A stretch of DNA of 64,000 bases from the human T2T-CHM13v2.0 reference genome, Homo sapiens, in the NCBI RefSeq assembly GCF_009914755.1, contig NC_060925.1. One strand, 5' to 3'. The notes beneath the pieces were generated by a model that saw only the letters and a program-made list of their open reading frames with translations, was not told the DNA's origin and did no database searches. The position numbers were made by a program, and so were the translations under genes. Shown in pieces: positions 11,618 through 14,644 of the stretch (the stretch's first letter is position 1; each line of letters opens with the position of its first letter).

Positions 11618-11961
11618 CTAGAACTATAAAGAGAGGTGTTTTACTGGAATCTAAAATCAATTTAAAAATCAAAAATAGTATTCTAAAAAATAAATGGGAT
11701 TAAGGTAGACTCAAAGTTCCACACCTCTTGGGTTAATTTTTTTTCCCCCAAATTAAGTCAATAAGAGCCAAAAGAAAAAGATTAACTTGCTTAGAATTAC
11801 ATCTAACAGTTTACAAGTTGCTGAAATTCAATGGGTATTCAGACTCAAATGCAGCTTACCAAAGAAAGCTATAAATATGATCTGAATTAACACCAGTCTG
11901 GTGGGGAAAAAAAAAGTGTATTGTATCAAACAGACTTGCTGTGATATCTGTTCAAACATAC

Positions 11962-12084
11962 CTGTACCAGTCAAAAGTCCAGCACTCTTCTTTCGTGCAT
12001 AAGCGCGTAAGTGGTTGGACAGGCTAACAGCACTTGTAAACGTCGTATTGCAATGCACACATGTTCTAAGCTTCACAGGCATAC
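11962..12084 (-). CDS. ZNF644: Putative alternative in-frame cassette exon of ZNF644 (123 nt, 41 aa, atypical zinc finger)
   Basis: Acceptor tttcttttgaatgatag|GT and donor ACAG|gtatgt, phase 1 at both ends, open in the exon-4 frame. Encodes GMPVKLRTCVHCNTTFTSAVSLSNHLRAYARKKSAGLLTGT, similar to the neighbouring LSNHVRGH fingers. Confidence 0.8.
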
Positions 12085-12611
12085 CTATCATTCAAAAGAA
12101 AACTATAATCCAGTTCTCACTTCAAAAAGTGAAATTTTCTTAGCTTAAAGAGTGTAGAAAAGCACCACAATAAAGATGGTTTTCAAAACGTTCAATGAAA
12201 TAGGTTAACTTAAAATAAGGAGGGGAAATTAAGTTAACTGTTATTAGTTTGTAGTTAGTATTTAGAGTCAACTCATGCTCTTTGGAAAGGTAGACGAGGA
12301 GTGACTTGAACCTTTGAGCTCCTCTGGATATACACCTATTATTACTTTCTTGCAGATTTCTGTGTTACGCAGATTATTTCTTAAACCTACTACAATACAA
12401 TCCTGTGATTTGAACAACACGGTTCTGTTGAGAAGTTTCAAAGCTTACAACATTACCAATAAAAAGAATTAAAAAGTCTAGTTGACAAAGTGGTAATTAA
12501 AGTGTTTTACCCACAAAACCGTAAAAGTCTCAATACTAAATTAGGCTTTCTGATGAAGGCTGGGAGAAAAGGTGGTAAAACACACCACTGAACAGCTGTT
12601 AGACACAACAT

Positions 12612-14038: not shown

Positions 14039-14644
14039 CTGAGTGCATAGTCAAGTCCATTTTTTGTGGCTGATACATCAACGGACTATCCTCATTTAAT
14101 GGAAGAACGCATTTCTGAACGAATCTCTTTCTTGCTGTCTGATTATGGATCTTTTGAGGAGAAATAGCAGAATTCCTTTCTTCTCCCATCCTTTTATTTT
14201 TAAGAAGTTCTATGAGTGTAAGAGACTGATTCTTTTTCCCACTGGGCAGTTCTGGTTTTGTTTCATCATATTCATTTAAGAAATTCAGCCCTTCTTCTTC
14301 TGATGCAGACACTGACAGAGCTTCAGTCTTTAGGCCATTACGGTATGCTTCAAGAGGTATAACATTTTGAGATATAAAGTCATCACTTGATGCAAGTTTT
14401 TGAGCTACAAATGGTCTGGGAATAATACGACGACTGTTCAATGCCTTTAAGATTTTTTCATATTTTTCTTCATTTTGCATCATCTCATTCAGAACACAGA
14501 TTGGAGATTTGTGAGCATCCCATTTCGTCTTTCCAAGTCTTTTCAAGTGGCCTCTAACATGATTTGATAATCCAATTTTAGTATCAAACCAACCACCACA
14601 GAGCTGACAAGTGTGTTCAGAAGTGGTTTCAGACTTCTCTATAG
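14039..14644 (-). CDS. ZNF644: ZNF644 exon 4 (606 nt) with WIZ-type finger [21 protein letters not shown]
   Basis: Acceptor tttttctag|CT ATA GAG follows a 181-nt intron (14645-14825) with an in-frame G|CT join. Donor TCAG|gtaaga at 14039. Overlaps the 181-aa ORF in the track. Confidence 0.96.

What the first reader, a model, noticed from the sequence alone, without database searches (positions are those of the whole stretch)
11962..12084. Hidden in-frame cassette exon adding an extra, altered WIZ-type zinc finger to ZNF644
Seen: a 123-nt segment with canonical AG/GT ends, phase 1 at both sides like the exon-4 donor, and open in that frame. It encodes C-x2-C-x3-F-x5-L-x2-H-x3-Y (CVHCNTTFTSAVSLSNHLRAY), echoing the two preceding fingers (GLSNHVRGH). 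The fourth zinc ligand is Tyr (TAT) instead of His. The exon retains several CpGs in a CpG-poor intron, which suggests coding constraint. Recalled: the canonical 1327-aa protein goes from ...MHS directly to ALDCK..., so it lacks these 41 aa. Predicted isoforms may already include them. Inference: a splice-switchable finger that binds zinc weakly, or with a partner-supplied ligand, could tune G9a/GLP or WIZ interactions.
Basis: partly seen in the sequence, partly recalled or inferred. Interest (0 to 1): 0.8.

Follow-up and report, generated by a model that had tools for sequence, protein, structure and literature searches.

The report
Conserved alternative zinc-finger exon of ZNF644
This is a real, already annotated optional exon of the human ZNF644 gene that adds an ancient zinc finger with tyrosine in place of its last zinc-binding histidine; most mammalian transcripts skip it, and it appears unstudied.

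Summary
Window 12084..11962 (minus strand) is a 123-nt AG|..|GT segment in phase 1-1, open only in the frame that continues ZNF644 exon 4. It encodes a C-x2-C-x12-H-x3-Y finger.

It is not hidden: the hub's RefSeq table lists an exon at exactly these coordinates.

The 40 whole codons are 40/40 identical in the 120 best bird and turtle ZNF644 entries. The cassette recurs down to fish-like orthologues, with Tyr in 30 of 35 distinct sequences, Cys in 4 and Phe in 1.

Mammals mostly skip it. Of 120 listed clusters, 12 carry it, 107 skip it, and all 39 transcript-sized 'lgn' entries skip it. A weak 3' splice site fits this.

AlphaFold2 predicts a confident beta-beta-alpha finger. A natural finger lacking the last ligand, ZNF711 Z7, folds with zinc (PMC11030341), so three-ligand zinc binding is the likeliest chemistry.

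The insert lies 33 residues upstream of ZF8, the finger that binds G9a/GLP (PMC5031922). Its function is inferred, not shown.

Verdict: a known but unstudied exon of moderate interest.

The parts
11962..12084 (-). Alternative coding exon of ZNF644 (123 nt, phase 1-1). It inserts 41 residues (G + MPVKL...LLTGT) between S1229 and A1230 of the 1327-aa form.
   Evidence: The hub's RefSeq table lists an exon of other transcripts at the same coordinates. The 40 whole codons are 40/40 identical in bird and turtle ZNF644.
11999..12061 (-). Finger core CVHCNTTFTSAVSLSNHLRAY: Cys 12061-12059, Cys 12052-12050, His 12013-12011, Tyr (TAT) 12001-11999 at the fourth ligand position.
   Evidence: codons; Pfam zf-met 24.0 bits against cut-off 21.2; zf-C2H2 21.4 against 25.2; Y28 aligned with the last His of solved fingers; AlphaFold2 beta-beta-alpha fold, pLDDT 84-90 in context.
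11963..11998 (-). Basic tail ARKKSAGLLTGT, predicted to continue the finger helix to the end of the exon.
   Evidence: helix 702-722 in P0003, which corresponds to SLSNHLRAYARKKSAGLLTG. K32, L37 and T40 are invariant in alignment A1.
12085..12124 (-). 3' splice site region. The AG is preceded by a short TTTTCTTTT tract and then the purine-rich GAATGATAG, so it is weaker than the constitutive acceptors.
   Evidence: 12 of 20 pyrimidines at -23..-4, against 14, 17 and 14 of 20 for exons 2, 3 and 4. The exon 5 acceptor, outside the window, is tctttctcttcccctttttag.
11954..11961 (-). 5' splice site, CAG|GTATGTTT.
   Evidence: The fish-like genomic ORFs read through at the same codon position.
11985..11994 (-). 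Purine-rich GAAAGAAGAG inside the exon, a possible splicing-enhancer-like element (inference only).
   Evidence: PMC10849790 (passages) reports a GAAGAAGAAG consensus for TRA2B and TRA2B binding to ZNF644 transcripts, but does not say which exon.
14039..14644 (-). Constitutive exon 4, the upstream partner. It carries finger ZF7 (GLSNHVRGH) and ends ...MHS plus one base (phase 1).

Best explanation
Window 11962-12084 (minus strand) is a genuine, very old coding exon of ZNF644 that mammals splice alternatively.

What it adds. When included, it inserts 41 residues between S1229 and A1230. These form a beta-beta-alpha zinc finger of the ZNF644/WIZ 'LSNH-R' kind whose fourth zinc ligand is Tyr, followed by a basic helical tail. 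[quoted passage not shown]

Likely mechanism, all inferred:
- The finger folds around zinc with three ligands (Cys, Cys, His), and the Tyr ring packs as an aromatic cap, as the Phe does in ZNF711 finger 7.
- The finger is a separate module. It is joined to ZF8 by a flexible basic linker and adds a nucleic-acid or protein contact surface next to the G9a/GLP anchor.
- In mammals a weak 3' splice site competes with a strong exon 5 acceptor, so the exon is usually skipped. In sauropsid gene models it is the default.

What is shown: the exon, its frame, its conservation, the Tyr, the predicted fold, and the pattern of inclusion in gene models.
What is inferred: zinc chemistry, function and splicing regulation.
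For: Structure of the exon. Annotation: the hub's RefSeq table lists an exon at 11962-12084.

Conservation
- All 120 best rows (319 hits at E<=10, 120 listed) are 100% identical over all 40 residues. They are ZNF644 of birds and turtles.
- Alligator, chicken and turtle are 40/40 in the cassette, against 135-141 of 156 in the exon 4 linker (Fisher p 0.009-0.046).
- Fish-like orthologues keep 21-27 of 40 in the cassette, against 19-60 of 156 in the linker. For P0260, Fisher p = 5e-6.
- In 32 orthologues, C, C, L, S, H, R and A of the finger are invariant and Y is kept in at least 90%.
- The sloth protein P0204 is 40/40. Guinea pig and degu carry the same cassette string. P0393/P0394, labelled Sus scrofa, are 97% identical to P0204 over residues 1150-1365.

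Fold
- AlphaFold2 of the 40-mer gives strands 5-7 and 14-16 and helix 21-33, mean pLDDT 81.6.
- In an 822-aa bird isoform the cassette finger scores 84-90, like ZF6 and ZF7. The linker to ZF8 scores below 50.

Chemistry precedent
- PMC11030341 (passages read) reports that ZNF711 Z7, with Phe at the last ligand position, is a stable zinc-bound finger with three ligands.
- The same paper cites work showing that fingers lacking only the last ligand bind zinc about as well as classical ones.

Position
- ZF8 ligands C1263 and H1283 are needed for G9a/GLP binding (PMC5031922).
- C1263 is residue 34 after S1229.

Splicing
- Of the 120 listed mammalian clusters, 12 carry the cassette, 107 skip it and 1 reads past the exon 4 donor. 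All 39 'lgn' entries skip it.
- The 3' splice site is weak and the exon 5 acceptor has a strong pyrimidine tract.
Against: - No transcript or peptide evidence for inclusion in human was available to me. Apart from the hub's table, all 12 cassette-bearing mammalian rows are gene models, and 0 of 39 transcript-sized 'lgn' mammalian entries include the exon.
- The Peromyscus cassette has 7-10 changes in 41 residues, including Tyr to Cys. Constraint is therefore relaxed or altered in at least one rodent lineage.
- AlphaFold2 does not model zinc. Fold searches with the 40-mer were not significant: best Foldseek E about 1.3 and best VIA Z 3.4.
- If the fourth ligand were simply dispensable, strict retention of Tyr would be unexpected. 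Tyr may have a specific role that I cannot see.
- Default inclusion in sauropsids is inferred from which isoform names appear, not from read counts.
- The species behind the fish-like and WIZ-like representatives are unnamed.
Confidence: 0.8

Rival explanations
1. Relic exon. It is the default form elsewhere in vertebrates, but in humans it is included only as splicing noise and no longer matters.
For: All 39 transcript-sized 'lgn' mammalian entries skip it, and 107 of 120 listed mammalian clusters skip it. The 3' splice site is weak. The Peromyscus copy has diverged. Published functional work appears to use the form without it: the residue numbers C1263 and H1283 in PMC5031922 fit only the skipping form.
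Against: The human cassette peptide is identical to the sloth, guinea pig and degu cassettes and to those of birds and turtles. The exon 4 linker differs at 8 of 156 positions from sloth and 21 of 156 from chicken. From general knowledge of neutral rates, roughly 100 million years per lineage without selection should have produced many changes or frame breaks. Both splice sites, the frame and 5 CpGs are intact.
Confidence: 0.08
2. One reading: the finger binds zinc weakly or needs a ligand from a partner protein, so zinc or partner availability switches it.
For: The fourth ligand is missing, and there is no His or Cys in the 12 residues after Tyr. Tyr is kept far more strictly than an unconstrained position would be.
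Against: According to PMC11030341 (passages, and the work it cites), fingers lacking only the last ligand bind zinc about as well as classical ones, and ZNF711 Z7 is highly stable. One orthologue has Phe at this position (P0279), so the hydroxyl is not indispensable.
Confidence: 0.07
3. The fourth ligand is supplied from the same chain by the conserved Cys of ALDCK, the first codons of exon 5. This would give a Cys-Cys-His-Cys site that exists only when the exon is included.
For: That Cys is kept in 32 of 35 distinct cassette-to-ZF8 segments. In P0289 a Cys at the Tyr position coincides with Gly in place of this Cys. The Cys is not a ZF8 ligand (PMC5031922).
Against: AlphaFold2 runs one helix from the finger to the end of the exon (702-722), which carries residue 728 away from the site, and confidence falls to 44-67 there. 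P0265 and P0326 keep Tyr but lack the Cys. The Peromyscus sequences have both Cys residues.
Confidence: 0.04
4. Chance open segment or pseudo-exon in the intron.
For: AG..GT segments open in phase 1 are common: 294 in the 14-kb intron part.
Against: The motif occurs only at this acceptor. There is a Pfam match, 100% identity across amniotes and the RefSeq exon in the hub table.
Confidence: 0.01

Closest known systems
ZNF644 fingers ZF6 and ZF7 (in-window exons 3 and 4) and the widely spaced fingers of WIZ
   Same: They share C-x2-C-x12-H spacing and the (G/S)LSNH-R helix motif. The cassette's best match in a WIZ-like protein (P0334) is the finger just before the C-terminal zf-WIZ finger, with a score of 88 against 62 for the next best. 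Both begin with PVKL-x-TC and hold the same place in a collinear order of fingers.
   Different: Those fingers end H-x3-H, whereas the cassette ends H-x3-Y. The match is not reciprocal-best: the WIZ finger scores 96 to ZF6, 88 to the cassette and 87 to ZF7. That P0315 is a Wiz protein rests on the atlas's automatic cluster name. For P0334 it rests on its zf-WIZ domain.
ZNF711 zinc finger 7, a natural finger with three zinc ligands (PMC11030341, passages read)
   Same: It is a classical finger with the last His replaced by an aromatic residue (Phe there; Tyr here, and Phe in orthologue P0279). It was reported to fold stably with zinc on three ligands.
   Different: Zinc binding of the ZNF644 cassette has not been measured. 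ZNF711 Z7 sits in a tandem array, whereas this finger is isolated and encoded by an optional exon.
WIZ exon 8 skipping (PMC13583986, passages read)
   Same: In the paralogue, an exon that carries a C2H2 finger is alternatively skipped, so optional fingers are already described in this family.
   Different: WIZ exon 8 encodes the second, N-terminal finger (residues 215-348). It is not the counterpart of the ZNF644 cassette.
Pfam zf-WIZ (PF23015), the ZF8 finger of ZNF644 and WIZ that binds G9a/GLP
   Same: It is the immediate neighbour of the cassette in the same protein, with 43-47 residues between the Tyr-position residue and the first Cys of ZF8.
   Different: The cassette gives no zf-WIZ match at E<=10, while ZF8 scores 74-79 bits. 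ZF8 has a longer Cys-to-His spacing.

Membership tests
Classical C2H2 (Cys-Cys-His-His) zinc finger | C-x2-4-C, then a 12-residue spacer with conserved Phe and Leu, then His | tested here: met
   The sequence is CVHC-NTTF-TSAVS-L-SN-H. C8, C11, F15, L21 and H24 are invariant in A1.
Classical C2H2 (Cys-Cys-His-His) zinc finger | A second His (or Cys) 3-5 residues after the first His, as the fourth zinc ligand | tested here: not met
   Tyr (TAT, 12001-11999) is at +4, and there is no His or Cys in the next 12 residues. Y28 aligns with the last His of solved fingers.
Classical C2H2 (Cys-Cys-His-His) zinc finger | Profile score above the curated cut-off | tested here: inconclusive
   zf-met scores 24.0 against a cut-off of 21.2 (above). 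zf-C2H2 scores 21.4 against 25.2 and zf-C2H2_4 scores 21.0 against 27 (both below). The matches end before the last ligand position.
Classical C2H2 (Cys-Cys-His-His) zinc finger | Beta-beta-alpha fold | tested here: inconclusive
   AlphaFold2 predicts two strands and a helix at pLDDT 82-90. Structure searches were not significant: Foldseek best E about 1.3, VIA best Z 3.4. The top rows are small zinc fingers.
Natural zinc fingers with three ligands (last ligand missing) | Cys, Cys and His present, with a non-ligand residue at the fourth position in the wild-type sequence | tested here: met
   Tyr in 30, Phe in 1 and Cys in 4 of 35 distinct sequences.
Natural zinc fingers with three ligands (last ligand missing) | Zinc-dependent folding with three protein ligands | not testable with these tools
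   This needs metal titration or NMR. The precedent comes only from PMC11030341.
Pfam zf-WIZ (PF23015) | Profile match | tested here: not met
   zf-WIZ is not among the families listed at E<=10 for the cassette. ZF8 of the same proteins scores 74-79 bits.
Conserved in-frame cassette exon | Length a multiple of 3, same phase on both sides, no stop codon | tested here: met
   123 nt, phase 1-1, one open frame of six.
Conserved in-frame cassette exon | Both forms, with and without the exon, exist in the same lineage | tested here: met
   Mammalian clusters: 12 with the exon and 107 without. For example, Cavia isoform X3 has it and X4 and X5 lack it. Most of these are gene models.
Conserved in-frame cassette exon | Inclusion seen in human transcripts or peptides | not testable with these tools
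   No read or mass-spectrometry data were available. The only evidence is the hub's RefSeq row ('exons of other transcripts 11962-12084').

The most novel reading that the evidence does not exclude
The zinc site of the cassette finger is completed across the exon junction by the otherwise orphan, nearly invariant Cys of ALDCK (C1233 of the canonical protein), encoded by the first codons of exon 5. A Cys-Cys-His-Cys site would then form only when the exon is spliced in. It would pull the basic linker and the G9a/GLP-binding finger ZF8 into a different geometry, making a splice-dependent metal switch on how ZNF644 presents G9a/GLP. A related reading that is also not excluded: mammals have demoted this ancestral finger in both paralogues. 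It is usually skipped in ZNF644, and I found no counterpart at the human WIZ locus.
Probability: 0.06. Interest if true: 0.6.

Novelty: already known. Interest (0 to 1): 0.33.

Why it matters
ZNF644 is a core targeting subunit of the G9a/GLP H3K9 methyltransferase (PMC4365668, PMC5031922) and a candidate gene for high myopia (PMC3111487).

- The form usually treated as 'the' human protein lacks a finger that is identical from human to birds and present in fish-like orthologues. This finger sits next to the G9a/GLP anchor.
- In the passages I read, the functional papers use residue numbers that fit only the form without the exon.
- The first myopia screen describes a six-exon gene, so this exon was probably not examined.
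- If the exon is included in particular tissues or stages, isoform-specific targeting and disease variants could have been missed.
- It would also be a clean natural example of a strictly conserved finger lacking its last zinc ligand.
- None of this is surprising in kind: optional fingers and three-ligand fingers are both described.

Tried and rejected
- Structure searches with the 40-residue model. Foldseek against the PDB gave no hit at E<=0.001. VIA-align over 48,161 chains gave a best Z of 3.4. The domain is too small for significance, so these are not used as evidence.
- One atlas call failed on length. I sent the shorter relative P0315 instead.
- Literature. I searched for 'ZNF644' with 'isoform'; with 'WIZ', 'G9a' and 'zinc finger'; with 'exon inclusion' and 'alternative splicing'; and with 'cassette exon'. 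I also searched 'Zfp644' with 'splicing'. None turned up a paper describing this exon. Supplementary splicing tables are not searchable, so it may be listed in large splicing atlases.
- TRA2B link. PMC10849790 reports TRA2B binding to ZNF644 transcripts but does not say where. The GAA-rich motif in the exon remains a guess.
- WIZ exon 8 as a counterpart: rejected, because it encodes the N-terminal second finger.
- Fourth ligand from the ALDCK Cys on the same chain: kept only as a low-odds reading.
- DNA-level tests of selection (synonymous against non-synonymous change, intron conservation) could not be run, because no vertebrate genome other than the window's own is held.
- I did not run complex prediction, because I make no binding claim.

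Full report
**1. The observation**

ZNF644 lies on the minus strand. Read on that strand, bases 12084..11962 are preceded by AG and followed by GTATGTTT. The in-window coding sequence through exon 4 is 3688 nt, so exon 4 ends in phase 1 (...ATG CAC TCA G). The 123-nt segment keeps that phase.

Of the six frames of the segment, only the frame that continues exon 4 is open. It reads G-MPVKLRTCVHCNTTFTSAVSLSNHLRAYARKKSAGLLTGT. The ligand codons are TGT, TGC and CAC, and TAT (Tyr) sits where the last His belongs.

The two preceding fingers carry GLSNHVRGH. The exon has 5 CpGs (observed/expected 0.76), against 0.19 in the rest of the intron. Apart from the windows over the exon itself, all intron windows with 5 or more CpGs lie in masked repeats.

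**2. Is it more than chance?**

The splice-like ends and the open frame are not. The 14-kb intron part contains 294 AG..GT segments of 60-300 nt that are open in phase 1.

Three other things are beyond chance:
- The finger motif is found only at this acceptor.
- The peptide scores 24.0 bits on Pfam zf-met, whose cut-off is 21.2.
- The conservation described in section 4.

**3. It is not hidden**

The RefSeq table that the hub added lists an exon of other ZNF644 transcripts at exactly 11962-12084. A search with the 40-residue peptide found 319 longer proteins at E<=10. The 120 listed are all 100% identical over all 40 residues and are named ZNF644 of birds and turtles.

**4. Conservation**

The table gives identities to human.

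| Species or protein | Cassette | Exon 4 linker |
|---|---|---|
| Chicken | 40/40 | 135/156 |
| Turtle | 40/40 | 140/156 |
| Alligator | 40/40 | 141/156 |
| Sloth (P0204) | 40/40 | 148/156 |
| Fish-like orthologues (P0260 to P0280) | 21-27/40 | 19-60/156 |

- For chicken, turtle and alligator the contrast with the linker gives Fisher p 0.009-0.046. For sloth alone it is not significant (p 0.36).
- A profile-free scan of 1.84 billion representatives found the cassette in about 40 ZNF644-like proteins. These have three LSNH-type fingers and a C-terminal zf-WIZ finger. The atlas places one of them (P0260) with 'zinc finger protein 644' clusters of chordates.
- For P0260 the contrast between cassette and linker gives p = 5e-6.
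- Short genomic ORFs in that library read through the donor at the same codon. The exon boundary is therefore old too.
- Across 35 distinct cassette-to-ZF8 segments, the fourth ligand position is Tyr in 30, Cys in 4 (three Peromyscus forms and P0289) and Phe in 1 (P0279). It is never His.

**5. Inclusion pattern**

I queried with human exon 4 and examined the 120 best mammalian clusters. Twelve carry the cassette, 107 join ...HS directly to (A/V)(L/I)DCKQKK, and one reads past the exon 4 donor.

The twelve are all gene models or database entries derived from them: sloth, vampire bat, chinchilla, guinea pig, degu, blind mole rat and Peromyscus.

The 39 entries whose source is 'lgn' sit on contigs of about 3-6 kb. 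For a multi-exon protein of 1300 residues, that can only be spliced RNA; this is my inference. All 39 skip the exon. One bird-like 'lgn' entry, P0055, includes it.

In several birds the only protein named for the gene carries the exon (Numenius, Apus, Chaetura, Tauraco). I read this as default inclusion in sauropsids and mostly skipping in mammals. It rests on models, not on read counts.

**6. Why it is skipped (inferred)**

- The cassette acceptor has 12 of 20 pyrimidines at -23..-4, and the purine-rich GAATGATAG lies directly before the AG.
- The constitutive exons 2, 3 and 4 have 14, 17 and 14 of 20.
- The exon 5 acceptor, fetched from the same assembly, is tctttctcttcccctttttag.
- The donor, CAG|GTATGT, is good.
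- The exon holds a GAAAGAAGAG run.

**7. The protein module**

- Folded alone with 18 orthologous fragments, the cassette gives strands 5-7 and 14-16 and helix 21-33, with mean pLDDT 81.6.
- I also folded an 822-residue bird isoform whose cassette is identical to the human one, using 32 orthologues. The finger scores 84-90, which equals ZF6 and ZF7 and exceeds ZF8 (about 70).
- In that model the helix runs on through the basic tail to the end of the exon, and the linker to ZF8 scores below 50.
- Sequence search of the PDB aligns Y28 with the final His of Miz-1 and ZBTB24 fingers.
- Fold searches were not significant.

**8. Zinc chemistry (inferred)**

PMC11030341 (passages read) reports that ZNF711 finger 7 has Phe at the last ligand position and is a stable zinc finger with three ligands. 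The same paper cites Simpson 2003 and Kluska 2018, which found that fingers lacking only the last ligand bind zinc about as well as classical ones. I did not read those two papers.

The single Phe orthologue here and the Tyr-to-Cys change in Peromyscus fit an aromatic cap at a ligand position.

**9. Context in the protein**

PMC5031922 (passages) shows that the atypical finger ZF8 is sufficient to pull down G9a/GLP, and that C1263A or H1283A abolishes binding. Counting from the window's translation, C1263 is residue 34 after S1229. The cassette is therefore inserted 33 residues upstream of ZF8, and those published numbers fit only the form without the exon.

PMC4365668 (passages) maps a second contact, between the ZNF644 N-terminus and the G9a activation domain. 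It counts 8 fingers and does not mention isoforms. Any effect of the cassette on these contacts is untested.

**10. Origin**

- WIZ-like representatives P0315, P0330 and P0334 carry [28 protein letters not shown] just before their final finger, with a normal last His. The atlas's nearest cluster to P0315 is 'protein Wiz', and P0334 has a zf-WIZ domain at its end.
- This is the cassette's best match in those proteins, 88 against 62 for the next best. It is collinear with the other shared fingers but is not reciprocal-best.
- ZNF644 and WIZ also share the intron that splits ZF8 after CR.
- The finger therefore probably predates the ZNF644/WIZ split, with His changed to Tyr on the ZNF644 side.
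- I found no counterpart in the last 4 kb of the chr19 region that matches WIZ-like fingers in the human assembly.
- The best human genome matches to the WIZ-like finger are ZNF644 ZF6, the cassette and ZF7.

**11. Literature**

Five searches found no paper on this exon. PMC13583986 describes skipping of a different finger exon in WIZ. PMC3111487 describes a six-exon ZNF644 for mutation screening. Supplementary splicing tables could not be searched.

**12. Verdict**

This is a correct and careful observation of a real, strongly constrained, optional finger exon. Its existence is already in RefSeq and in many isoform records. Its function and regulation appear unstudied. Both the kind of thing (an optional finger) and the chemistry (a three-ligand finger) have precedents. 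Interest is moderate.

Noticed in passing
P0201, P0211, P0216, P0218, P0221, P0237 (Peromyscus ZNF644 isoforms): The Peromyscus cassette differs from the otherwise near-invariant mammalian one at 7-10 of 41 residues, and has Cys instead of Tyr at the fourth ligand position (HFRAC). This would restore a four-ligand site. It suggests altered constraint in this rodent lineage.
   Followed up: partly
P0003-P0122 (one search set; counted): 19 of the 120 bird and turtle entries continue after ...LLTGT with something other than ALDCK, or end within a few residues. These isoform models have the cassette finger but lack ZF8, the finger that binds G9a/GLP. They may reflect alternative 3' ends or intron read-through.
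   Followed up: no
L005 (G000:C19:15547500-15551500, minus strand): This chr19 region matches WIZ-like fingers and the final zf-WIZ finger. It has no counterpart of the PVKL...GLSNHMRGH finger that the WIZ-like proteins P0315, P0330 and P0334 carry before their last finger. The finger seems absent from human WIZ while being mostly skipped in mammalian ZNF644.
   Followed up: partly
G000:C11:23527615-23527692 and 23529737-23529856 (+): There are weak matches on chromosome 11 to a ZNF644/WIZ-type finger and to the zf-WIZ finger (48% identity, one TAG inside). This could be a decayed third family member or a chance match.
   Followed up: no
P0252, P0253, P0255, P0270 and about 14 fish-like short entries: Some short 'proteins' in the representative library are the cassette read from its internal ATG through the donor into the intron. 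They are gene-prediction artefacts on vertebrate genomic DNA. They show that the intron just after the exon is similar among the mammal-like copies.
   Followed up: partly
L006 (ZNF644 exon 5) and L005 (WIZ-like region): The ZF8 finger is split by an intron after ...CR and before FC... in both genes. A shared intron position supports common origin of the C-terminal module.
   Followed up: partly
window 11985-11994 (-): The cassette contains GAAAGAAGAG, which resembles the GAA-rich TRA2B consensus reported in PMC10849790. That paper also reports TRA2B binding somewhere on ZNF644 transcripts.
   Followed up: no
cassette-to-ZF8 linker in orthologues: The Cys of ALDCK, at the start of exon 5, is kept in 32 of 35 distinct sequences although it belongs to no recognised finger. 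The linker is strongly basic (KQKKSRSRSGSKKK), and the number of residues between the Tyr-position residue and the first Cys of ZF8 is held at 43-47.
   Followed up: partly
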